From a virus (taxonomy: Duplodnaviria; Heunggongvirae; Uroviricota; Caudoviricetes): DNA of 8,583 bases. The DNA lies in IMG/VR virus record IMGVR_UViG_2541047170_000019; one strand, 5' to 3'. The translations under genes were made by a program, and so were the position numbers. Shown piece by piece: positions 140-8,147 of this stretch. The notes beneath the pieces were generated by a model that saw only the letters and a program-made list of their open reading frames with translations, had not been told where the DNA came from and made no database searches. How positions within the stretch are numbered: the first letter of the stretch is position 1; each line of letters starts with the position of its first letter.

Positions 140-460
140 TCAGGACTGAATGCGTCTGTAACAACCGCACTGATAGTCTGCCAGACCCGCCATAACCAGC
201 TGGGTCAGTATTAACTGGCAGCGTTCGCGTGAAAGGTAAGTATTCTGCGCAATCTCCCCGACTGTCGCCGGTTCGGTAACGCTTAATTCATTAAACACCA
301 CTCTGGCGGTTTCTGTCATATCCTGCTGTTTTAGCATGTCTTTTTCCCTTTTCCGGTTAACGTGACATACCAATAACTCTTGTCGAAAAAGCCAGCAAGT
401 TGAAAGACCGGTATTAGCAACCACCAGCGCGTTTAACGCCCCGTGCCGTTTTTCAGTCAT
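140..460 (-). CDS. hypothetical small protein downstream of the Q-like gene; C-terminal part resembles a winged-helix DNA-binding fold; start uncertain
   Basis: 106-aa ORF in the six-frame track. The ATG at 460 directly abuts the T-tract of the upstream terminator and has no Shine-Dalgarno; an internal ATG at 337 (65-aa product) is preceded by AAGGGA-like purine run about 9 nt upstream. No motif recognised with certainty. Confidence 0.4.
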   Translation of the reverse strand: MTEKRHGALNALVVANTGLSTCWLFRQELLVCHVNRKREKDMLKQQDMTETARVVFNELSVTEPATVGEIAQNTYLSRERCQLILTQLVMAGLADYQCGCYRRIQS

Positions 461-482
461 AAAAAAACCCGCAAAAAGCGGG
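461..482 (-). terminator. intrinsic (rho-independent) terminator after the Q-like gene; possible tR'-like element
   Basis: Minus strand reads CCCGC-TTTTT-GCGGG followed by TTTTTTT (plus-strand 468-472 cccgc, 478-482 gcggg, 461-467 A7). The stem is only 5 bp but GC-rich and followed by a 7-U tract. It lies about 80 nt downstream of the Q-like stop at 562. Confidence 0.5.
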
Positions 483-561
483 CTCTTTCAAATGTCCATG
501 TCTGCTATTCGCCTCGCGGTACAGCTTTGCGAAGCTTACCGGAATTGAAGCAGTTTTTACG

Positions 562-1116
562 TCAAAAAGCAATAACTTTTTTCTCTATACCAAAAGCCAT
601 AACCATTGGTTTGTACAAAATAAATTCTGCCACCTTTAGCCAATGCTCAATGCGTCTTTCACAGGTTCTTAAACTCCATTCCGGATGTGCATCATTCAGC
701 AATTCAGCCATTTTGCGCTTAGTCATCCCCCGCCCCACATAACGCTGACTCAGAACATTGAGCAGCCCGGGATAACCTGCCAGTACTTCACCAATAACCC
801 TGTCGATTATTAACGCCTCTGAATCGGTACAATGTGCCAGCCAGCTTTTTTGCTTGCCGTTGATCATATCCCGCAAAAAAGCCTCAAGTTTAGGTTTGTC
901 CAGACCTGCTTTTTTCATCCTCCGGAGCGCCTCGTTAATTGCCGTTTTTGTCAGCTTTTTAGAGGTCAGCAACTGGTTGAACATATTTCCCGTCTTACCG
1001 CCGCCAATATACGACCAGCGCCCCCACATACGTAGTTTCCCCTGAATCCAGACACTTTCCAGCGTGGTGAGACGAAGGTGCTCTCCGCTTTTTCCTGTGT
1101 TCGTTGGGTAAATCAT
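562..1116 (-). CDS. putative late-gene antitermination protein Q-like (lambdoid)
   Basis: The track ORF 562..1236 overlaps the upstream gene; the internal ATG at 1116..1114 overlaps the upstream TGA stop (ATGA), giving a 184-aa coupled gene. Position immediately after a YbcO-like nin gene and before a terminator matches the Q slot. The motif LRMWGRW...LLTSK resembles the WG-W / LITSK region I recall from QuuD/phage-82-type Q proteins (from memory, unverified). Confidence 0.5.
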   Translation of the reverse strand: MIYPTNTGKSGEHLRLTTLESVWIQGKLRMWGRWSYIGGGKTGNMFNQLLTSKKLTKTAINEALRRMKKAGLDKPKLEAFLRDMINGKQKSWLAHCTDSEALIIDRVIGEVLAGYPGLLNVLSQRYVGRGMTKRKMAELLNDAHPEWSLRTCERRIEHWLKVAEFILYKPMVMAFGIEKKVIAF

Positions 1117-1403
1117 AAATAACCGTCCTTTCTCCAGATCTCTTGTGTGCGAAAAACACCTTCTGCATGCATCAGGCGCAATTCTTCTTTGGTGTAATCG
1201 CTGGTTTTTACTCTCCCGTCGATTAAATCGTGGCATGAGTTACAGGCAATCGCTGCCTGCATATCGTGTGGCTTTATCGCTGTTCCGCACGTTCCCGCCA
1301 GCCTGTAATGCGCCAGCACAGAGGTTTCGGGATTGTGATTGCAGTAGCCAGGGATTCTGATCTGGCATATCTGGCCTTTAGCCGCTTTACGTAAATTCAC
1401 CAT
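1113..1403 (-). CDS. YbcO-like protein (DUF1364 family, Cys-rich putative nuclease of lambdoid nin regions)
   Basis: 96 aa, the same length as E. coli DLP12 YbcO, with a closely similar pattern (LRKAA.G..CQ.RIPG.CN.NPETSVLAH.RL.G.CGT..KP.D...IAC..CHD).  Start ATG 1403..1401 overlaps the upstream TAA stop by 1 nt. Confidence 0.75.
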   Translation of the reverse strand: MVNLRKAAKGQICQIRIPGYCNHNPETSVLAHYRLAGTCGTAIKPHDMQAAIACNSCHDLIDGRVKTSDYTKEELRLMHAEGVFRTQEIWRKDGYL

Positions 1404-2002
1404 TACGCAAACTCCAGTAGTTGTGCGGCCACATTTTCAACTTCCTCCTGAGAGGAGAATTTACGGAACAGAATCCAGTTCCACAGCACATTCAGTACAG
1501 ATTTATAAACCTGCTGAAACTCGACTTCGTCCATATTCGCAAAAGCGATGGATTTTGCCCGACGCCCACGGCTACCGTCCGGATAAATATGCTCGGTGTA
1601 AAATCCGGCCTGAATGGTTACCCACTCGCGGAAAGCCTCAAACGACTTTAGCAACGCCGTATCCCGGGTTCTACGAGTCGCAACGGTGTTAAGGTATTGC
1701 TCTGCGGCATCACTCAGGGCTGGCGTGTGTTCCCGACCAACTGATTCGCACAGGTAATCAACGAAACCAGACAGCAGTTCTCGTTCGCGAGGCGTGATCG
1801 CCCCACCGACCGGAGTCCAGTAATCGAATCCCAGTTGCAGGAGTTTGAAAAAACGCTTGTGGAATGCGTAGTTACGCACACGCTTAAAATCTGCGTGTAT
1901 CCACTCACCTATTTTGATTTGATGCAGAAAATCGCAACTCTCCGGCGTCGCCGGGAGAAGTAAACCAGAAGAAGTTTGTTTGACCAGTTGTATATGCGCC
2001 AT
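1403..2002 (-). CDS. conserved lambdoid nin-region protein, probably DUF1367 family
   Basis: Clean 199-aa ORF at about 45-50% GC by eye. GAGAGA Shine-Dalgarno about 7 nt upstream of the ATG at 2002. Lies directly upstream of, and coupled to, the YbcO-like gene. Family assignment is from memory of typical nin-region gene content. Confidence 0.65.
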   Translation of the reverse strand: MAHIQLVKQTSSGLLLPATPESCDFLHQIKIGEWIHADFKRVRNYAFHKRFFKLLQLGFDYWTPVGGAITPRERELLSGFVDYLCESVGREHTPALSDAAEQYLNTVATRRTRDTALLKSFEAFREWVTIQAGFYTEHIYPDGSRGRRAKSIAFANMDEVEFQQVYKSVLNVLWNWILFRKFSSQEEVENVAAQLLEFA

Positions 2003-2421
2003 TTCTCAATCTCTCGATGGCGCAGTGCAGCAGATGCCAGTTGTTCAAGCTAGCACGCAAATTGTAAACCAGAATGCCAGGAAAAAACAAAACCCGCCGA
2101 AGCTGGTTGTGTGCGGTTGCGTTGAAGTCTCCTAGCCAAAGAGTAGCGGTGACCACTCCCCGCCGATAATCTTAGTTGTTTAATTTCGTAAGCTAACTAG
2201 GCTAAAAGCTCTCTGTTGTCTGCCTGTTGTACAATTAACAAAATGAACAACGAACTAGATATACCAACGCCAGAATGGTGCAACAAATCCCAAACAACAC
2301 AGCAATGCAACAATAACATATGTTATTTTCCTCTCACGGGATTCAGTCCTGAATTCTCATAAAGCTAATCTTTTTTTAAAAACATACTGTTAGATCACAT
2401 GCACTTTCTTTCTTAACATCG

Positions 2422-2449
2422 TTGACTTCGCATGCGAAGCGTTTAAAAT
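2422..2449 (+). promoter_or_regulatory. candidate sigma70-type promoter for the GHKL ATPase operon
   Basis: TTGACT (2422-2427), 16-bp spacer, TAAAAT (2444-2449); A/T-rich upstream region. Predicted start site near 2456, about 45 nt upstream of the ATG at 2502. The spacer contains the perfect palindrome TTCGCATGCGAA (2427-2438). Confidence 0.4.
2427..2438. promoter_or_regulatory. perfect 12-bp palindrome TTCGCATGCGAA inside the promoter spacer; candidate operator or methylation-sensitive site
   Basis: Self-complementary 12-mer read directly from the sequence, overlapping the -35 hexamer and spacer of the candidate promoter. Confidence 0.3.
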
Positions 2450-2501
2450 CAACAATTTGCACTTAAGGTATTTATTTTCCCAAACACATAGAGAGTAAAT
2501 T

Positions 2502-3893
2502 ATGACTGAGAACACGACTCCAACAGCAGACTTTAGTCCTAGTAAAAGATTTTTTGTAAGTATGCTAACTCGAGATATCGACTTAAACGATGCCATACTT
2601 GATCTGCTTGATAACTGCGTCGATGGGGCTTTACGTACAATAAAAGACACAAAAAAAACTTCAAAACCATATGAAGGATTTTATGCGAAACTTACGATTA
2701 ATAAAGATGTCTTTATTATAGAAGACAATTGCGGAGGTATCCCTAAAAGCTTCCGAGAATATGCTTTTAAAATGGGACGACCCCATCAAAAAGAAGAAGA
2801 AAATGAAGGCACCGTTGGCGTCTATGGTATTGGTATGAAAAGAGCCATTTTTAAAATGGGTAGAGATTGCTCAATACAATCGAATAATCCCGATGGCGCA
2901 TTCACTGTAGATATAACACCTGATTGGATCGATGGTGATGGTTGGAAAATACCGATGCACGAGAGTGACTATGATAACAAAAATCCAACAGGCACAACTA
3001 TAGAGATAAAAAAACTCCATTCTAATGTGGCACAAAAATTTAATGAGAGCACATATCTTACTGATCTCTTTTTACAGATAAAACACTCATTGTCATTTAT
3101 TATTCAAAAAGGATTTAAAATAGAATTAAATGGAGTTGTTGTTGAACATAATCCGATTAACATCATAACTGATCATTCTAAAATAGAACCATACATATAT
3201 AAAGCTAAAATAGACGATGTTGATATCGATTTAGTTGTTGGCTTCTATAAAAATTTAGAAGATGACAATGATGATGTTTTAGAAAAAAGGAGTTCTGATG
3301 ATGCTGGATGGACTGTCATTTGCAATGACCGCGTTGTTCTATATTGTGATAAGACACATCTCACAGGTTGGGGCTTTGCTAATGTACCAAGGTTTCATAC
3401 CCAATTTATAGCAATTTCTGGGGTTGTTCGCTTTACCAGTAAAAACCCAGAAAAATTACCAATAACAACAACGAAACGAGGTGTCGATCTTAGTTCTACA
3501 TTGTACAATGATGTACGAAATAAAATGATTGAAGGGATGATGCATTTTATTCGATTCACCAATCAGTGGAAAGGTGAGCATCTTGAAGAAGGGAAAAAAT
3601 TACTTAAGTCAGCTCAGTCACATGAAGCTCAATCTTTATTTGAAATTACCCCACAATCAACTCCAGAAGATAAAAAAAATAACTGGTCCAACCCTAATAG
3701 AAACAAAAATGAGTGGCGATATACACCTAAGCTGCCTACCCCAGTAAAAAAAAGCTCTACTGTACGAATAATCTTCACCAGAGAGAAAGAAGATGTTAAA
3801 ATTTTATCTAAATATTTCTTTGGACATGAAGATGCTAGCGCTTCTGATGTGGGGATGCAATGCTTTGATACGGTGATTGAAGAGGTGAAGTGA
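2502..3893 (+). CDS. GHKL-superfamily (Bergerat-fold) ATPase, MutL/MORC/Hsp90-like N-terminal domain with a C-terminal region of about 290 aa of unknown function
   Basis: 463-aa ORF; GAGAG Shine-Dalgarno 6 nt upstream of the ATG. All four Bergerat motifs appear in canonical order: N-box DLLDNCVDGA (aa 34-43, nt 2601-2630), G1 box IEDNCGGIP (aa 73-81), G2 box GTVGVYGIGMKRAIF (aa 103-117) and G3 box PTGTTIEI (aa 162-169). The N-box has the N...D spacing of MutL/Hsp90/GyrB/MORC-type ATPases rather than histidine kinases. Confidence 0.8.
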   Translation: MTENTTPTADFSPSKRFFVSMLTRDIDLNDAILDLLDNCVDGALRTIKDTKKTSKPYEGFYAKLTINKDVFIIEDNCGGIPKSFREYAFKMGRPHQKEEENEGTVGVYGIGMKRAIFKMGRDCSIQSNNPDGAFTVDITPDWIDGDGWKIPMHESDYDNKNPTGTTIEIKKLHSNVAQKFNESTYLTDLFLQIKHSLSFIIQKGFKIELNGVVVEHNPINIITDHSKIEPYIYKAKIDDVDIDLVVGFYKNLEDDNDDVLEKRSSDDAGWTVICNDRVVLYCDKTHLTGWGFANVPRFHTQFIAISGVVRFTSKNPEKLPITTTKRGVDLSSTLYNDVRNKMIEGMMHFIRFTNQWKGEHLEEGKKLLKSAQSHEAQSLFEITPQSTPEDKKNNWSNPNRNKNEWRYTPKLPTPVKKSSTVRIIFTREKEDVKILSKYFFGHEDASASDVGMQCFDTVIEEVK

Positions 3894-4882
3894 TGTCTGG
3901 ACAATACATTCCCTATCACTTAAGGCATAATAAGTCTATTGATAGAGAGATTTTTCTCGAAAGCCTAAACCTCTTAAGCAAAAGACTAAATATTCAAGAA
4001 TATACATATATAGGTTTTGGTGGTCCGATGCTTGAAGATTTTAGAATCATGCATAATCGTATCGCTCTTTCTGATATGATTTCTCTCGAAGAACAAGAGT
4101 CTACTCACATCAGACAAAAATATAATTTGCCTTATAATTGTATTGATTGTAAGCTAATATCAGCTCATGACTTTATTCTTGATTATAGTTTTTCTAAACC
4201 ATCAATAACATGGTTAGACTATGCCTCCCCGAAAAAAATACAAACGGATCTAGATGATATACACTTACTAAGTACTAAAGTAAGCTCTTTTGATATTTTG
4301 AAGGTCACCTTCCCCATAAATCCTAGTTCTTATTACCAACGTAGAGTTGGAGAAAGTTTAGATATTTTTAAAGAAGCTTTTATTAATTCATTAAAATCAT
4401 TGCTTGGGAAAAAGTATCTTGATTTTAATCTTCAGATATCAAATGCAGATCTTTCAGATCGTAAGATTAAAGCTCTTTTAATACGAATTATTACAAACGC
4501 TTTTAGATCAGCAATAGAACGTGGTCTTTCAGGACGTAAGGATAAGATTCAGTATTACCCATTATCCTTAAATCAATATAATGATGGCAGTCATACCATG
4601 TTGACAATATCAGGTTTTTTCTCCTCAGAACAAGAATATATAGAGTTATCTAAGGCATGCGACCTTTCTAACTGGCAATTTTATTCAACAAATTGGGAAG
4701 ACGTGCAAGAAATAGCAATACCAACACTAACAATTAAAGAAAAGATAAATTTAGATAGTAAACTGCCTGATAAAGAAGCATATCAGGCAGCCGCTGAAGA
4801 GTTCTCTTTAAACGAAAATGAACGGGATAACTATTATAAATACTATAGGTTATACCCTAACTTCCAAAGAATTATGGTTTAA
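3893..4882 (+). CDS. hypothetical protein, translationally coupled partner of the GHKL ATPase; function unknown
   Basis: ATG 3893-3895 overlaps the ATPase TGA stop (3891-3893) as TGATG, with AGAGGTGA 5-8 nt upstream (the track's start at 3890 is a GTG). 330-aa (from ATG 3893; 331 codons from the track GTG 3890) AT-rich ORF. No canonical nuclease, helicase or Toprim motif recognised. The N-terminal YIGFGGP...RIALSD...NLPY is faintly reminiscent of a Rossmann-type SAM-binding motif followed by a degenerate (D/N)PPY (speculative). Confidence 0.75.
   Translation: MSGQYIPYHLRHNKSIDREIFLESLNLLSKRLNIQEYTYIGFGGPMLEDFRIMHNRIALSDMISLEEQESTHIRQKYNLPYNCIDCKLISAHDFILDYSFSKPSITWLDYASPKKIQTDLDDIHLLSTKVSSFDILKVTFPINPSSYYQRRVGESLDIFKEAFINSLKSLLGKKYLDFNLQISNADLSDRKIKALLIRIITNAFRSAIERGLSGRKDKIQYYPLSLNQYNDGSHTMLTISGFFSSEQEYIELSKACDLSNWQFYSTNWEDVQEIAIPTLTIKEKINLDSKLPDKEAYQAAAEEFSLNENERDNYYKYYRLYPNFQRIMV
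4745..4790 (-). terminator. candidate intrinsic terminator for the methyltransferase gene, embedded in the 3' coding region of the convergent partner gene
   Basis: Perfect 10-bp inverted repeat CTGCCTGATA (4763-4772) / TATCAGGCAG (4781-4790) with an 8-nt loop. On the minus strand it is followed by the U-rich run TTTACTATCTAAATTTAT. It lies about 60 nt downstream of the methyltransferase stop at 4850. The plus-strand side is not T-rich. Confidence 0.4.
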
Positions 4883-6001
4883 ATATTCGGGCTGTACTCT
4901 TTTATTTAATAAATTGTACAGCCCCTTTAATATATATTCAGCAACTATTGGTGACACGCTATTTCCTATTTGTCTGAAACTATGCCATTTAGTTACATGA
5001 AAGCGAAACCAATCAGGGAAGCCTTGTAATCTAGCAGCTTCTCTTGGTGTAATCACTCTTGGATGATAAGGGTGGATCGGCCTGACGGCTTGAAAGCTTC
5101 CTTTATCTCTAGCGGTTCCCGCCCTTAAAGTCGGGCAAAAACCATTTGGATCTAATCTTGTAGATCTTGAAATTTTATCAGTTTCCCCAAAAGATAAGGA
5201 AGCATAACGCTCTTGGACGATTTTGCTATGTAATGTTCCGGTACATCCAGATATGATATTATTTTTTAACTTAGCGATCGATTCTGTATCACCAACATTC
5301 CGAGGGATCTGCCCCCATAATTTTTCATAAAATCCCCCTTTTCGATCTTTTTTAATTGTTCGCCAACTCTCAGAGTCTGATTGCCAATTGGCATCGATAA
5401 TATCTGGTAATCCATACAAAGCATCTTTTACAGTAACCGGATCAATCATTTTAGGCATAAATACTTCATCTGAAATATCAAGCTTCAATGATTTTTTTAC
5501 ACCGATAAAAAAATATCTAGTTCGAATAGTTGGAGCACCATAATCAGATGCTTTTACCTTGATGGGATCAAGAATATCATAATCACCGCTAACCAAATTA
5601 AATGCTTTATTTCTAATGCCAGAATATTTCTCTTGCATAATACCTGGAACATTTTCTGCCAAAAAGAATAATGGCTGTAATTCTGATACTAAACGGTAGA
5701 AATGCATGTAAAGCTGATTCCTGCTATCATCAGGATTCCCCTTGCCTATTGAACTAAATCCTTGGCACGGAGGACCGCCAATAATACCATCTATGGGCAT
5801 ATCGTTTTTAAAAAAACCCTTAATTATTTCTGCATTTAGTAAAGAAACATCTTCTTGGACGTGCAAACTTCTTGGAAAATTAATTGCGTGAGTATTAATA
5901 GCATGTTGATCAATTTCAACTGCCATTTTAACATCAAATCCAGCACGTGCAGCACCAAGACTTAGACCTCCAACGCCAGAAAACAAATCTATTACATTCA
6001 T
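4850..6001 (-). CDS. DNA (cytosine-5)-methyltransferase
   Basis: 383 aa with canonical C5-methyltransferase motifs in order: motif I DLFSGVGGLSLG (aa 5-16), motif IV GGPPCQGFS with catalytic Cys79, motif VI FLAENVPG, motif VIII RTRYFFIG, motif X IGNSVSPIVAEYI. Target-recognition region between VIII and X is about 190 aa. Specificity cannot be read from the sequence. Confidence 0.9.
   Translation of the reverse strand: MNVIDLFSGVGGLSLGAARAGFDVKMAVEIDQHAINTHAINFPRSLHVQEDVSLLNAEIIKGFFKNDMPIDGIIGGPPCQGFSSIGKGNPDDSRNQLYMHFYRLVSELQPLFFLAENVPGIMQEKYSGIRNKAFNLVSGDYDILDPIKVKASDYGAPTIRTRYFFIGVKKSLKLDISDEVFMPKMIDPVTVKDALYGLPDIIDANWQSDSESWRTIKKDRKGGFYEKLWGQIPRNVGDTESIAKLKNNIISGCTGTLHSKIVQERYASLSFGETDKISRSTRLDPNGFCPTLRAGTARDKGSFQAVRPIHPYHPRVITPREAARLQGFPDWFRFHVTKWHSFRQIGNSVSPIVAEYILKGLYNLLNKRVQPEYLNHNSLEVRV
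4889..4924 (+). terminator. stem-loop downstream of the partner gene stop; candidate terminator for the ATPase operon, lying inside the methyltransferase C-terminal codons
   Basis: 9-bp inverted repeat GGGCTGTAC (4889-4897) / GTACAGCCC (4916-4924) with an 18-nt A/T-rich loop, followed on the plus strand by CTTTAATATATATTC. It starts 7 nt after the partner gene stop (4880-4882). The large loop and interrupted T-tract make it a weak terminator call. Confidence 0.3.
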
Positions 6002-6033
6002 ATAGTTGCAACGTCTCTTATTAGTTTCTATGT

Positions 6034-6063
6034 ATTATAACACAACTGTTCTTGATGTTTTAA
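6034..6063 (-). promoter_or_regulatory. candidate extended -10 promoter for the methyltransferase gene
   Basis: Minus strand reads TGTTATAAT (perfect TATAAT at 6039..6034 with TGn extension) with a weak -35 TTAAAA at 6063..6058 (18-bp spacer). Predicted start site near 6027, about 25 nt upstream of the ATG at 6001. Confidence 0.4.
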
Positions 6064-6173
6064 CCCCATAAGATAACCTCATAAAGGCTATCCCTTGAAA
6101 ATACCGGATCGCATAAATTTAATCTTTCAAAACTACTTGTCTATTAATCGAGCAATTTAAGGTTGTTTTAGTC

Positions 6174-6189
6174 ATGTCGATACCGACAT
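6174..6189. repeat. 16-bp palindromic element ATGTCG-ATAC-CGACAT in the noncoding region upstream of the methyltransferase
   Basis: Perfect 6-bp inverted arms with a 4-bp spacer read directly from the sequence; a second inverted repeat CCCATTT(n12)AAATGGG lies at 6201-6226. Confidence 0.3.
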
Positions 6190-6263
6190 AGTTAACTAAA
6201 CCCATTTCATCGTCCAACAAATGGGGGTAATACACTTTGATTTATAGTCGGGTGGGTTTTTCT

Positions 6264-6299
6264 CTATCTGCCTTTGGTGTTCATGCCCAAGGCAGATAG
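6264..6299. repeat. perfect 11-bp inverted repeat at the right edge of the AT-rich island
   Basis: CTATCTGCCTT (6264-6274) and AAGGCAGATAG (6289-6299) with a 14-nt spacer. Not flanked by a T-tract on the correct side in either orientation, so not a canonical terminator. It sits at the composition transition. Confidence 0.35.
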
Positions 6300-6352
6300 C
6301 CTCAAGCACCCGCAGCAATTCTACTTAACTATCCTTTTCCCGCAAATCGTTT

Positions 6353-6436
6353 TTATCCCCAGCGGCAAATCGAATACACAACCAGCGCCACCGCCATCGC
6401 AATTCCTACCGTTGTGAATGCTTCAGGCCAGGTCAT
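6353..6436 (-). CDS. small hydrophobic peptide (27 aa, single predicted transmembrane helix), translationally coupled to the DUF551 gene
   Basis: Absent from the ORF track because of its size. ATG 6436..6434 overlaps the upstream TGA (6435..6433) as ATGA, with AGGAGGT (plus 6443-6449) 6 nt upstream. Translation: MTWPEAFTTVGIAMAVALVVYSICRWG, stop TAA 6355..6353. Confidence 0.45.
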   Translation of the reverse strand: MTWPEAFTTVGIAMAVALVVYSICRWG

Positions 6437-6990
6437 TGATTCACCTCCTGCGGCGGTTCTGGTAGCGACATCCAGTGGGTTGCTTGCCTAAGATCATTAC
6501 CCGGACTAACTGCTATACCTCCGCGCCGGAACGTGCCTCCGAGATAGCGTGCGGAATATATTAATGGCCCAGCCTCGCTATCGATATTCATCGAAATAAG
6601 CACGTTCTGGCTCTTTTCAGGCATTCGCTCAGTACAGCTTATCCAGCCATCCAGAGTTATCGGAGATCTGGTTGACGTTTCCGAGATTTCCCGAAAATTG
6701 TTGGTTGACGAATTCTTATTTTCCCGAAAGTTTCCGGCCTGAAGCATGGCGACGCGGCAGGCGTTCCAGCCATCAGCATATGTTTTAGTTACACCGTCGA
6801 GATGGCAGGTAAGCAAATCCATTTCATCAGGCACTACCATTGCTATCGGCTCTGCTTCCAGTGATGCCAGCGCGATACGAAACACATTAGCCAGCAGGCT
6901 GTCTGAAGACTTGTTATCGTGCGCCGAGTCGCTCAGGAAGCCTGTGATGTATGATTTAATCTCCGCGCGTTCTCTGGTAATAGTGCTCAT
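6433..6990 (-). CDS. DUF551-domain protein (lambdoid prophage early/nin region)
   Basis: 185-aa ORF. The C-terminal segment DGWISCTERMPE...VLISMN...THWMSLPEPP matches the W...LP...hWMPLPepP signature I recall for DUF551. AAGGA Shine-Dalgarno about 9 nt upstream of the ATG at 6990. Confidence 0.7.
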   Translation of the reverse strand: MSTITRERAEIKSYITGFLSDSAHDNKSSDSLLANVFRIALASLEAEPIAMVVPDEMDLLTCHLDGVTKTYADGWNACRVAMLQAGNFRENKNSSTNNFREISETSTRSPITLDGWISCTERMPEKSQNVLISMNIDSEAGPLIYSARYLGGTFRRGGIAVSPGNDLRQATHWMSLPEPPQEVNQ

Positions 6991-6991
6991 A

Positions 6992-7210
6992 TCAGTTTTC
7001 CTTATACGGATTAATTTTATTGTGCAGTGCGCTGAATGATTCCCATGTCACATCGGTATATAGCTCAATAACTGGTTCAAATGTCCTTCCAATTATCCAG
7101 ACCAGTAATAGCGGGGATATCGGTATCATCAACACTATAAACAGAATGAAAAACAGAAACTCTGTTGTTCTGCTCTTTCGTGGGTAATTTTTTTCTAAAT
7201 AATGTTTCAT
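6992..7210 (-). CDS. small membrane protein (hypothetical, 72 aa)
   Basis: ORF with a hydrophobic core (FLFFILFIVLMIPISPLLLVWIIG); its stop lies 1 nt from the DUF551 gene start; ATG at 7210..7208. Confidence 0.5.
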   Translation of the reverse strand: MKHYLEKNYPRKSRTTEFLFFILFIVLMIPISPLLLVWIIGRTFEPVIELYTDVTWESFSALHNKINPYKEN

Positions 7211-7216
7211 TTCTTA

Positions 7217-7232
7217 CCGCCCTTTCGGGCGG
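7217..7232 (-). other. GC-rich hairpin CCGCCC-TTTC-GGGCGG between an AGGAGG motif and the start codon of the 72-aa gene
   Basis: Perfect 6-bp GC stem with a 4-nt loop. On the minus strand the order is AGGAGG (7238..7233), hairpin, TAAGAA, ATG (7210). No U-tract follows on either strand, so it is not a canonical terminator. Confidence 0.3.
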
Positions 7233-7337
7233 CCTCCTGATGTTCTGAGGGTGCAGGAATCCCTCCGGTTAAGGATTTAATAAAAATCGTTTCTGATTTA
7301 AATCTTCAGTATTTAGTTGTTAGTTGGTTTATCGCCT

Positions 7338-7649
7338 TTATGCTTCAGCCTTATTTCGCAACCAGACACAAACCGGGCCATCTTCCGTATCATGAATGGA
7401 ACCAATAAACCAGCCATCGCCCTCTGGTCGTTCCGGTTCCCATGCAGAAATATCAGCATCACACGCATCAAGGTCAGCACATCCTTCATCTCTGAAGCAG
7501 AGGACGTATTGAAGATTATTTTCCTCCATCCAGGCGTTAAACTCTTCCGTTGAAATATATTCCCGACCATCACAGAATTTTTCATATTCAGGATGTGTCC
7601 AGTAGCCATATCCGTCACGAACTACCGGCATTTCTTTAATTTCACTCAC
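7338..7649 (-). CDS. highly acidic small protein (hypothetical, 103 aa)
   Basis: GTG start 7649..7647 with AGGAGG 7 nt upstream, overlapping the upstream gene stop by 8 nt. About 25 Asp/Glu against 8 Lys/Arg, with 5 Cys. Preferred over the overlapping same-strand ORF 7313..7618, which lacks such signals. Confidence 0.6.
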   Translation of the reverse strand: MSEIKEMPVVRDGYGYWTHPEYEKFCDGREYISTEEFNAWMEENNLQYVLCFRDEGCADLDACDADISAWEPERPEGDGWFIGSIHDTEDGPVCVWLRNKAEA

Positions 7650-7869
7650 TGTTAACCTCCTGCAACGCTACACGATACGCCTTCTTTATCCACGCCTTAC
7701 TGCCATATAATTTCGTCTTCATAATAAACACACCTGCACGACTCGCCGATATCCCCGGACAGGTTAACAGCACAGCATCCACCACACGGTTATGCTTCCG
7801 AAACTCCATTACAGTACTGCTGATAACCACCTGCCCCACCGGGCCGTAATCCTGATACAGGATTTTCAC
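7642..7869 (-). CDS. hypothetical protein (75 aa)
   Basis: GTG start 7869..7867 with AGGAGGGTG about 8 nt upstream, overlapping the upstream TGA (7868..7866) as GTGA. Confidence 0.5.
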   Translation of the reverse strand: MKILYQDYGPVGQVVISSTVMEFRKHNRVVDAVLLTCPGISASRAGVFIMKTKLYGSKAWIKKAYRVALQEVNSE

Positions 7870-8147
7870 GCAGACACCCTCCTGTCGAAATAAACGTAGT
7901 TATTCACTATGCGCAGCGGCATGCCTAATTTTCTGGCAATTTCCCTTCTTTGCATGCCTCTCTGATGCAGTTGCCGCGCCAGCTCAATATCACGCTGAGA
8001 ATATTTTGCCGACGGGTGAAAATCACCACGTAACATCATGCTGATGCCCAGCTCCCGTGCCTTCGTTCTCACTGCCGCTTCAGTTCGTCCGATAAGTGCG
8101 CCAACGCTTTTTACCTTCATCGTTCCCGCACACTGCCGGAGTATCAT
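7866..8147 (-). CDS. putative helix-turn-helix DNA-binding protein
   Basis: Preferred start is ATG 8147..8145 (94 aa), 32 nt downstream of the upstream stop; an alternative ATG lies at 8120, and the track's longer start at 8270 is a GTG that would overlap the upstream gene by about 90 nt. Two HTH-like segments: GALIGRTEAAVRTKAREL and QRREIARKLGMPLRIVNNY. Confidence 0.55.
   Translation of the reverse strand: MILRQCAGTMKVKSVGALIGRTEAAVRTKARELGISMMLRGDFHPSAKYSQRDIELARQLHQRGMQRREIARKLGMPLRIVNNYVYFDRRVSA

What the first reader, a model, noticed from the sequence alone, without database searches (positions are those of the whole stretch)
2422..6063. Candidate undescribed restriction-modification-like or defence module: GHKL ATPase, coupled unknown partner and convergent C5-methyltransferase
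Three AT-rich genes form a compact unit with their own promoter-like and terminator-like signals inside a prophage nin region, a known hotspot for morons and defence cargo. The ATPase carries all four Bergerat-fold motifs of the MutL/MORC/Hsp90 type, not the ABC, AAA+ or helicase ATPases typical of classical type I/III systems or McrBC. MutL/MORC-like GHKL ATPases linked to restriction-modification loci have been predicted computationally (Iyer, Abhiman and Aravind 2008), but I cannot match this gene trio to a named, characterised system. The coupled 330-aa partner has no recognisable nuclease motif and may be the effector.
Basis: partly seen in the sequence, partly recalled or inferred. Interest (0 to 1): 0.85.

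Follow-up and report, generated by a model that had tools for sequence, protein, structure and literature searches.

The report
Conserved methylase–MORC ATPase–methylase-fold defence cassette
A prophage of E. coli O157:H7 carries a three-gene cassette (a DNA cytosine methylase, a MORC-like ATPase and a methyltransferase-shaped partner) that recurs across many bacterial phyla and phages, looks like a restriction-modification-type defence system without any recognisable DNA-cutting enzyme, and has never been tested.

Summary
The three genes are real and lie at the stated coordinates. The window is prophage Sp10 of E. coli O157:H7 Sakai (ECs_1955, ECs_1954, ECs_1953), identical in EDL933.

**What each gene is**
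- The ATPase is a GHKL+S5 module. Its best structural matches are MORC3, SMCHD1 and MORC2.
- The "unknown" partner belongs to Pfam PF20553 and has a class-I SAM-methyltransferase fold.
- The methylase is identical to PDB 3G7U.

**Conservation**
- ATPase and partner are translationally coupled in 79 of 80 genomic loci and 70 of 73 viral loci.
- A co-evolving C5-methylase is present in 67 of 80 genomic and 72 of 73 viral loci, in three different gene orders.
- Vsr, found in 22 of 80 loci, is the only other recurrent gene. No nuclease is conserved.
- In two loci the pair sits inside a DISARM operon instead of next to a C5-methylase.

**Status**
- PADLOC, NCBIfam and the literature searched give no named system.
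- The class (MORC-like ATPases with cytosine methylases) was predicted by Iyer et al. in 2008.

**Verdict:** a genuine, widespread, uncharacterised methylation-linked defence candidate. The mechanism is inferred, not shown. It is a new variant of a known kind. Interest 0.68.

The parts
2422..2449 (+). Promoter-like site (TTGACT-16-TAAAAT, 10/12) 53 nt upstream of the ATPase start. It contains a perfect 14-bp palindrome, CTTCGCATGCGAAG, at 2426-2439, which could be an operator.
   Evidence: This is a consensus match only, and such sites are not enriched over shuffles. The palindrome is not conserved upstream of homologous operons.
2502..3893 (+). [not shown]
3893..4882 (+). [not shown]
4850..6001 (-). 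[not shown]
   Evidence: PF00145 E 2.6e-61. PADLOC MTase_II E 2e-98. The matched residues 1-367 are 365/367 identical to PDB 3G7U, E 1.3e-254. Orthologues next to the pair share a median 52% identity over the full length, including the target-recognition region.
6034..6063 (-). Promoter-like site (TTAAAA-18-TATAAT with extended-10 TG, 10/12) upstream of the methylase start.
   Evidence: Consensus match only.

Best explanation
A self-contained, horizontally mobile, methylation-based self/non-self discrimination cassette, here carried as lysogen-expressed cargo by prophage Sp10.

Shown:
- The three genes are linked and co-inherited.
- Their folds are established: a C5 DNA methylase, a MORC-like GHKL+S5 ATPase, and a SAM-methyltransferase-fold partner with the cofactor-site signature conserved.
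- No nuclease is conserved in or around the cassette.

Inferred:
1. The C5-methylase marks a specific host sequence as self.
2. The ATPase and the partner form one complex.
3. The partner acts as the DNA- or site-probing subunit, or as a SAM-dependent effector.
4. Unmethylated sites on incoming DNA license ATP-driven dimerisation or clamping of the MORC-like ATPase on that DNA.
5. Replication or expression is then blocked directly, or the DNA is handed to host nucleases. The system does not cut with an endonuclease of its own.
6. During lytic growth, phage early transcription on the - strand would raise methylase expression and run antisense through the ATPase-partner operon.
For: Linkage:
- The ATPase lies immediately upstream of the partner, with start and stop overlapping, in 79/80 genomic loci. 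The exception is cut by a contig end. The same holds in 70/73 IMG/VR loci.
- A C5-methylase lies within 7 kb in 67/80 genomic and 72/73 viral loci. It occurs in three arrangements: convergent downstream, co-directional upstream, and co-directional downstream.
- Pairwise-distance correlations: ATPase-partner r=0.79, ATPase-methylase 0.40, partner-methylase 0.33, all Mantel p<=0.001.
- Methylase orthologues keep a median 52% identity, including conserved target-recognition residues.

Defence-type context:
- Sp10 prophage in E. coli.
- Filamentous phage PfAC20 carries the trio.
- Flanks include TniQ/TnsC, integrases and scattered R-M, DISARM and BREX genes.
- The pair is inserted inside complete DISARM operons in L054 and L084.

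Folds.

No nuclease:
- Only Vsr recurs, in 22/80 loci.
- No nuclease domain was found in either protein.
- All 150 best partner relatives are stand-alone proteins of 211-381 aa.

Expression in lysogens:
- ECs1954 and ECs1955 are co-regulated.

Prior prediction of the class: Iyer et al. 2008.
Against: - No experiment shows protection against phage or plasmid for any member.
- No nuclease or other recognisable effector is present, so 'restriction' is an analogy.
- Eight complete loci lack an adjacent C5-methylase: six cyanobacterial ones in housekeeping contexts, L037, and DISARM-linked L054. The pair therefore does not strictly need this methylase next to it.
- The predicted catalytic acid of the ATPase is Asp34 rather than the usual Glu, in at least 95% of 79 homologues. 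Hydrolysis may be slow or regulatory.
- The partner may be an active methyltransferase with an unknown substrate. The fold search cannot tell N-, C- or O-methylation apart, and cannot distinguish DNA, RNA or protein targets.
- The ATPase-partner complex is inferred from coupling and co-evolution. It was not modelled.
Confidence: 0.55

Rival explanations
1. A modification-only module. The C5-methylase and a second active methyltransferase (the partner), helped by an ATP-driven DNA clamp, install one or two DNA modifications. These would serve anti-restriction or epigenetic purposes, for example protecting phage DNA, with no restriction activity.
For: - The partner keeps an intact-looking SAM-site signature (G43, E66, D109) and resembles nucleic-acid methyltransferases RsmD, Trm1 and RlmI.
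- No nuclease is present.
- The methylase lies in the phage early transcription direction.
- Phage and prophage carriage is common.
Against: - The ATPase-partner operon is antisense to phage early transcription and is expressed in the lysogen.
- The module is also frequent in chromosomes that are not prophages, and occurs inside DISARM operons.
- Convergent, 3'-overlapping M and R-like units and shuffled gene order with retained adjacency are typical of R-M systems.
Confidence: 0.15
2. An infection-triggered abortive system. The methyltransferase-fold partner is a toxic effector that methylates rRNA, tRNA or a protein when the MORC-like ATPase senses foreign or unmethylated DNA. The C5-methylase sets the self state.
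For: - The best structural neighbours of the partner are rRNA and tRNA methyltransferases.
- The partner has many invariant polar residues beyond the SAM site, including Y8, H9, R11, K14, R18, R74, Y229 and D231, which suggests a specific substrate site.
- No nuclease is present.
Against: - Nothing here bears on toxicity or on RNA substrates.
- The tight methylase linkage is explained more simply by DNA-level discrimination.
Confidence: 0.12
3. A repair accessory for 5-methylcytosine. A MutL-like ATPase module would assist Vsr-type very-short-patch repair of T:G mismatches created by deamination at the sites methylated by the linked methylase.
For: - Vsr is the only other recurrent neighbour, in 22/80 loci.
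- MutL stimulates Vsr in E. coli. This rests on established knowledge and is discussed in PMC2292703.
Against: - Most loci, including this window, have no vsr.
- The structural match is closer to MORC and SMCHD1 than to MutL.
- The obligatory methyltransferase-fold partner has no role in such repair.
- The DISARM-embedded and methylase-less occurrences do not fit.
- Vsr accompanies C5-methylases in ordinary R-M systems too.
Confidence: 0.06

Closest known systems
paraMORC/MORC GHKL ATPases of predicted restriction-modification operons (Iyer, Abhiman and Aravind 2008, PMC2292703)
   Same: GHKL+S5 ATPase with intact ATP motifs. Sporadic, laterally mobile distribution. Neighbourhood with cytosine methylases and Vsr. 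The predicted role is ATP-driven DNA manipulation within R-M systems.
   Different: - The main text of that paper pairs these ATPases with SFII helicases and RE-fold, HNH or TIR domains.
- The obligatory PF20553 methyltransferase-fold partner and the absence of any nuclease or helicase are not described there.
MzaABCDE (Gao et al. 2020; NCBIfam NF041932 MzaB)
   Same: An experimentally reported anti-phage system that combines a GHKL-type ATPase with a cytosine methylase (as described in PMC9523054).
   Different: - The ATPase scores 12.4 bits against the MzaB model, whose cutoff is 850.
- There is no PADLOC Mza hit.
DISARM (DrmA/DrmB/DrmC with DrmMI or DrmMII)
   Same: A methylation-based defence system with no obligatory nuclease, and the C5-methylase hits the DrmMII and DruM models. 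In L054 and L084 the ATPase-partner pair is inserted within the DISARM operon: MmeI-like methylase, (SNF2), pair, DrmA, DrmB, (PLD).
   Different: The window has no DrmA, DrmB or DrmC. The pair is not a described DISARM component.
Eukaryotic MORC and SMCHD1 ATPases
   Different: Only about 15% sequence identity. No CW, coiled-coil or hinge domains. The MORC-specific S5 motif is only partly matched.
Shedu type I-D / paraMORC3 (VcSduA)
   Same: An N-terminal GHKL ATPase in a validated anti-phage protein (PMC12137116).
   Different: VcSduA carries a fused DUF4263 PD-(D/E)xK nuclease and needs no methylase. The protein here has no nuclease domain.

Membership tests
GHKL (Bergerat-fold) ATPases | Motifs I-IV: N-box acid-x3-Asn, DxGxG, the glycine-rich ATP lid, and the motif IV Thr | tested here: met
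   D34/N38, D75-G79, G106-K113 and G164-T165 are conserved in 28 and 79 homologues. PF13589 scores 37.5 bits against a cutoff of 25. The acid is Asp, not Glu.
GHKL+S5 clade (MutL, GyrB, Hsp90, MORC) | An S5-fold transducer domain that supplies a conserved basic residue | tested here: met
   [not shown]
MORC family sensu Iyer et al. 2008 | The GhXhhpXXRhl motif in the S5 domain | tested here: inconclusive
   The nearest match is G289-W-G-F-A-N-V-P-R297-F-H299. R297 is not conserved (Ser in cyanobacterial members) and the last position is His. The top fold matches are nevertheless MORCs.
paraMORC families 1-5 (Iyer et al. 2008) | GHKL+S5 without the MORC motif, in R-M-type neighbourhoods with Dcm or Vsr, plus subfamily-specific motifs | tested here: inconclusive
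   The general features are met. The subfamily could not be assigned. No paraMORC2 ExxxH motif is evident in the alignment, and the supplement holds no sequences.
Pfam PF20553 (Methyltransf_35) | Full-length match above the gathering score | tested here: met
   300.4 bits against a cutoff of 27, residues 2-329 on model positions 1-308/309.
Class-I SAM-dependent methyltransferases | Rossmann-like seven-strand fold with a glycine loop after beta-1, an acidic residue at the end of beta-2, and motif IV at the end of beta-4 | tested here: met
   [not shown]
C5 cytosine DNA methyltransferases | PF00145 with the PC catalytic motif and the ENV motif | tested here: met
   208 bits. P78-C79 and E116-N117-V118 are conserved. 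The matched residues are 365/367 identical to the solved structure 3G7U. The recognition site is unknown.
Classical Type II restriction-modification system | A methylase plus a cognate endonuclease with a recognisable nuclease fold | tested here: not met
   No nuclease domain was found in the ATPase or the partner with Pfam, NCBIfam, PADLOC, PDB sequence search or fold search. No nuclease gene is conserved in 148 flanking ORFs except Vsr.
[not shown]
   NF041932 scores 12.4 bits against a cutoff of 850. No PADLOC hit. No such genes are in the window.
DISARM | The DrmA and DrmB core | tested here: not met
   Absent from the window. Present around the pair only in L054 and L084.
Anti-phage defence system (functional class) | Measured protection against phage or foreign DNA | not testable with these tools
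   Only contextual evidence is available.

The most novel reading that the evidence does not exclude
The cassette is a nuclease-free immune system. An MTase-fold reader checks C5-methylation status, and a MORC-type ATPase then clamps or compacts unmethylated invading DNA to silence it. This would be a bacterial counterpart, and a possible ancestor, of methylation-coupled MORC/SMCHD1 silencing in eukaryotes. The same ATPase-partner module would plug into other methylation-based systems such as DISARM.
Probability: 0.2. Interest if true: 0.9.

Novelty: new variant of a known kind. Interest (0 to 1): 0.68.

Why it matters
- **Scale.** If it works as a defence system, it adds a widespread three-gene type to the methylation-based immune repertoire. 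The partner family alone has 2,127 clusters at 50% identity, and the system occurs in many phyla, prophages and a filamentous phage.
- **No nuclease.** Like BREX and DISARM it has no obvious nuclease, so solving its mechanism bears on the open question of how such systems stop phage.
- **Link to MORC biology.** The ATPase is structurally closest to MORC3, SMCHD1 and MORC2. A genetically tractable E. coli member linked to cytosine methylation would make the proposed bacterial origin of MORC-type, methylation-coupled chromatin ATPases testable.
- **Practical relevance.** It is lineage-I-specific cargo of E. coli O157:H7, expressed in the lysogen. It may shape phage and plasmid uptake in this pathogen.

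Tried and rejected
**Searches that gave nothing**
- PADLOC: no model matches the ATPase or the partner.
- NCBIfam: only sub-threshold hits.
- PDB sequence searches, single sequence and profile: nothing for the partner, and only a weak MORC3 hit (E 0.029) for the ATPase.
- Near-identical DNA in the GenBank phage collection: none.
- Rfam: no RNA family in the window.

**Leads that did not hold up**
- BFVD fold search of the partner returned only generic methyltransferases.
- The afdb50 fold library was unavailable.
- Terminator scan: no site belongs to the cassette. Promoter-like sites are not enriched.
- I tested whether the palindrome in the ATPase promoter is a conserved operator or methylase site. 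It is not conserved upstream of homologous operons.
- I tested whether the C-terminal extension of the longer GHKL paralogue is a fused PF20553 domain. It is not (hhalign probability 0.4%). Only the GHKL+S5 module is shared.
- A PD-(D/E)xK reading of D109...D134-x2-K137 in the partner was rejected. These residues fall on beta-4 and beta-5 of the Rossmann sheet, D134 and K137 are not invariant across the family, and the spacing is wrong.
- Chance adjacency of the three genes was rejected.

**Literature**
- Ten full-text searches covered PF20553, locus tags, accessions, 3G7U, and GHKL/MORC combined with defence or DISARM terms.
- None found a description of this trio.
Full report
**Observation**

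- 2502-3893 (+, 463 aa);
- 3893-4882 (+, 329 aa from the ATG that RefSeq uses; a GTG lies at 3890);
- 4850-6001 (-, 383 aa).

The ATPase stop codon and the partner start codon overlap by one base (TGATG), with GAGG 9 nt upstream. The partner and methylase genes converge and overlap by 33 nt. GC content falls to 0.31-0.41 across 2200-6200, against 0.46-0.52 in the flanks, so the cassette was acquired as one block.

Promoter-like hexamers sit at 2422-2449 (+) and 6063-6034 (-). Such sites are no more frequent than in shuffled sequence, and no terminator-like site belongs to the cassette.

**Identity of the locus**

It lies between the prophage replication genes and the Q-like antiterminator. The flanking genes are DUF551 on one side and DUF1367, YbcO and DUF1133/antitermQ on the other. 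This is the nin-equivalent region.

The methylase is transcribed in the direction of phage early genes. The ATPase-partner operon runs the other way.

Published data show that these genes are expressed in lysogens:
- ECs1954 and ECs1955 are co-regulated, down 2.6- and 3.2-fold on entry to stationary phase (PMC2241611).

**The three proteins**

*ATPase*
- It matches PF13589 HATPase_c_3.
- All four Bergerat motifs are present and invariant across 79 homologues. The N-box acid is Asp34 rather than Glu.
- It is therefore a MORC-like GHKL+S5 module. The invariant TTTK325RG loop sits where other family members place the phosphate-sensing lysine. That role is an inference.
- The helical C-terminal third (333-463) has few invariant residues and no nuclease signature.

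*Partner*
- It is not unclassified. It is a full-length member of Pfam PF20553, "Methyltransf_35, putative O-methyltransferase" (300 bits).
- The family-wide invariants include the cofactor-site signature: G43 in the GFGGP loop, E66 at the end of beta-2, and W107-x-D109 at the end of beta-4.
- There is also a striking N-terminal motif, Y8-H9-L10-R11-x-N13-K14-x3-R18, together with R74, Y229 and D231.
- This pattern fits an enzyme or a specific ligand reader better than a decayed domain. That is an inference.

*Methylase*
- It is a standard C5 enzyme (PF00145).
- Its matched residues 1-367 are 365/367 identical to the solved structure 3G7U.

**Are the genes functionally linked?**

A scan of one genome per species with the partner profile returned 80 loci. 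They come from Cyanobacteria, Proteobacteria, Firmicutes, Latescibacteria, Chloroflexi, Verrucomicrobia, Acidobacteria and other phyla.

- In 79 loci an ATPase homologue lies immediately upstream on the same strand, usually with overlapping stop and start codons. The one exception is truncated by a contig end.
- In 67 loci a C5-methylase lies within 7 kb, most often immediately beside the pair.
- The methylase occurs in three arrangements: convergent downstream as in the window, co-directional upstream, and co-directional downstream.

Adjacency that survives reshuffled gene order across phyla is strong evidence of a functional unit.

Starting from the ATPase instead, 73 IMG/VR viral or proviral contigs were found. 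Seventy have the partner directly downstream and 72 have the methylase.

Pairwise distances co-vary: ATPase-partner r=0.79, ATPase-methylase 0.40 and partner-methylase 0.33, all with Mantel p<=0.001. This control does not remove shared species history.

The methylase is the most conserved of the three, with median identity 52% against 42% for the ATPase and 31% for the partner. Its conserved residues extend into the target-recognition region. This hints at a largely fixed specificity.

The partner family has 2,127 representatives at 50% identity. All 150 best hits are stand-alone proteins of 211-381 aa, with no fusions.

**What else travels with the cassette**

Clustering the neighbouring ORFs, and scanning 148 flanking ORFs against Pfam and PADLOC, found only Vsr as a recurrent extra gene. 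It occurs in 22 of 80 loci and in 16 of the 148 ORFs scanned.

The remaining flanks hold TniQ/TnsC, integrases, occasional HNH proteins, scattered R-M, DISARM and BREX genes, and housekeeping genes. No nuclease or helicase is conserved.

Three further contexts are informative:
- Pseudomonas filamentous phage PfAC20 carries the trio as ORF1-3.
- In a Microvirga plasmid (L084) and a Myxococcota genome (L054) the pair has no C5-methylase. Instead it sits inside a DISARM operon. L054 reads MmeI-type methylase, SNF2 helicase, ATPase, partner, DrmA, DrmB, PLD.
- Six cyanobacterial loci and L037 hold the pair alone among housekeeping genes.

A longer GHKL paralogue of 560-610 aa shares the GHKL+S5 module (hhalign probability 99.7%) but has an unrelated C-terminal domain. 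It sits next to the methylase in eight genomic loci. In three viral loci it replaces the short-ATPase-plus-partner arrangement.

**Interpretation**

The best-supported reading is a mobile, methylation-based self/non-self cassette. The C5-methylase marks self. The MORC-like ATPase together with the methyltransferase-fold partner is the discriminating and effector part.

- Shown: the linkage, the folds, the conserved cofactor and ATP motifs, the mobile and defence-type contexts, and expression in lysogens.
- Inferred: that ATPase and partner form a complex, that unmethylated DNA is the target, and what happens to that DNA.

Neither protein nor any conserved neighbour is a nuclease. The ATPase is closest to the DNA-clamping MORC and SMCHD1 modules. 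I therefore favour ATP-dependent clamping or blocking of unmethylated DNA, possibly with hand-over to host nucleases, over direct cleavage. Confidence in that specific step is low.

The gene orientation suggests a regulatory logic. Phage early transcription would raise methylase expression and run antisense through the ATPase-partner operon during lytic growth. This too is an inference.

The rivals are:
- a modification-only module with two active methyltransferases;
- an abortive-infection system in which the partner methylates RNA or protein;
- a MutL/Vsr-like repair accessory.

Each is weaker, for the reasons given in the rival entries.

**Comparison with known systems**

The class was predicted by Iyer, Abhiman and Aravind (2008). 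They placed prokaryotic MORCs and paraMORCs in R-M operons with cytosine methylases and Vsr. Their main text does not describe a methyltransferase-fold partner or a nuclease-free trio. I could not assign a paraMORC subfamily.

Comparisons with named systems:
- **DISARM.** The window has no DrmA or DrmB.
- **Shedu/paraMORC3.** There is no DUF4263 nuclease.
- **The HEF_HK/Response_reg_2 system.** This is also linked to C5-methylases but has a different architecture.
- **Classical Type II R-M.** The nuclease criterion fails.

PADLOC-DB v2 has no model for either the ATPase or the partner. Ten full-text searches found no paper on PF20553, the locus tags or the protein accessions.

**Verdict**

- the partner belongs to a curated methyltransferase-fold family;
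- there is no terminator evidence;
- the general class was predicted in 2008.

It is a new variant of a known kind: a methylase-linked, GHKL-ATPase-containing, R-M-like system. The obligatory SAM-methyltransferase-fold partner, the absence of any nuclease and the modular use inside DISARM set it apart.

The interest is substantial. The system is widespread, sits in a tractable and heavily studied host, and is structurally tied to eukaryotic MORC biology. The interest is tempered because no phenotype has been shown and the association is not wholly unexpected.

Noticed in passing
window 2426-2439: A perfect 14-bp palindrome, CTTCGCATGCGAAG, lies between the -35 and -10 hexamers of the promoter-like site upstream of the ATPase gene. 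It could be an operator or a methylation-sensitive site. It is not conserved upstream of homologous operons.
   Followed up: partly
L054:239-12320; L084:1-10981: The ATPase-partner pair is inserted inside DISARM operons with no C5-methylase nearby. L054 reads MmeI-type methylase, SNF2 helicase, pair, DrmA, DrmB, PLD. L084 reads MmeI-like enzyme, pair, DrmA, DUF1998.
   Followed up: partly
L083 (PP058144.1) 280-3711: Pseudomonas filamentous (Pf) phage PfAC20 carries the same trio, co-directionally, as ORF1-3 at the accessory end of its 13.6-kb genome.
   Followed up: partly
L014:8064-9824; L152, L153, L155 (about 4965-6750): A longer GHKL+S5 paralogue of 560-610 aa has an unrelated C-terminal domain of about 230 aa. 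It sits next to the C5-methylase in eight genomic loci alongside the pair. In three viral loci it replaces the short-ATPase-plus-partner arrangement. This looks like a sister two-gene system.
   Followed up: partly
L003, L005-L009 (pair at about 5500-8000): Six cyanobacterial genomes hold the ATPase-partner pair with no methylase within 7 kb. In four of them (L003, L005, L008, L009) an NADH-dehydrogenase/antiporter-type membrane protein gene lies next to the pair. A cognate methylase, if there is one, must be unlinked.
   Followed up: partly
L013:3123-4733 and 5468-6961: Two ATPase homologues lie on the same strand about 730 nt apart, upstream of one partner gene, in a cyanobacterial MAG.
   Followed up: no
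window 2502-3893 (residue 34): The N-box acidic residue four positions before Asn38, normally the catalytic Glu of GHKL ATPases, is Asp in at least 95% of 79 homologues. This may mean slow or switch-like ATP turnover.
   Followed up: no
window 4850-6001: The methylase already has a solved crystal structure (PDB 3G7U, 365/367 identical over residues 1-367). No paper in the searched library mentions it, and its recognition sequence is not given by any tool used here.
   Followed up: partly
window 2003-6432, - strand: Phage early transcription on the - strand would pass through the methylase gene in sense and through the partner and ATPase genes in antisense before reaching the DUF1367 (ybcN-like) gene. 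This could switch the cassette from restriction to methylation during lytic growth.
   Followed up: no
window 6433-6990 and 6992-7210: The 185-aa DUF551 ORF is annotated only as an 81-aa protein in EDL933 RefSeq and is not annotated at all in Sakai. An intact 72-aa DUF4014 ORF at 6992-7210 lies just below a DUF4014 gene that RefSeq marks as frameshifted (window about 7194-7411).
   Followed up: no
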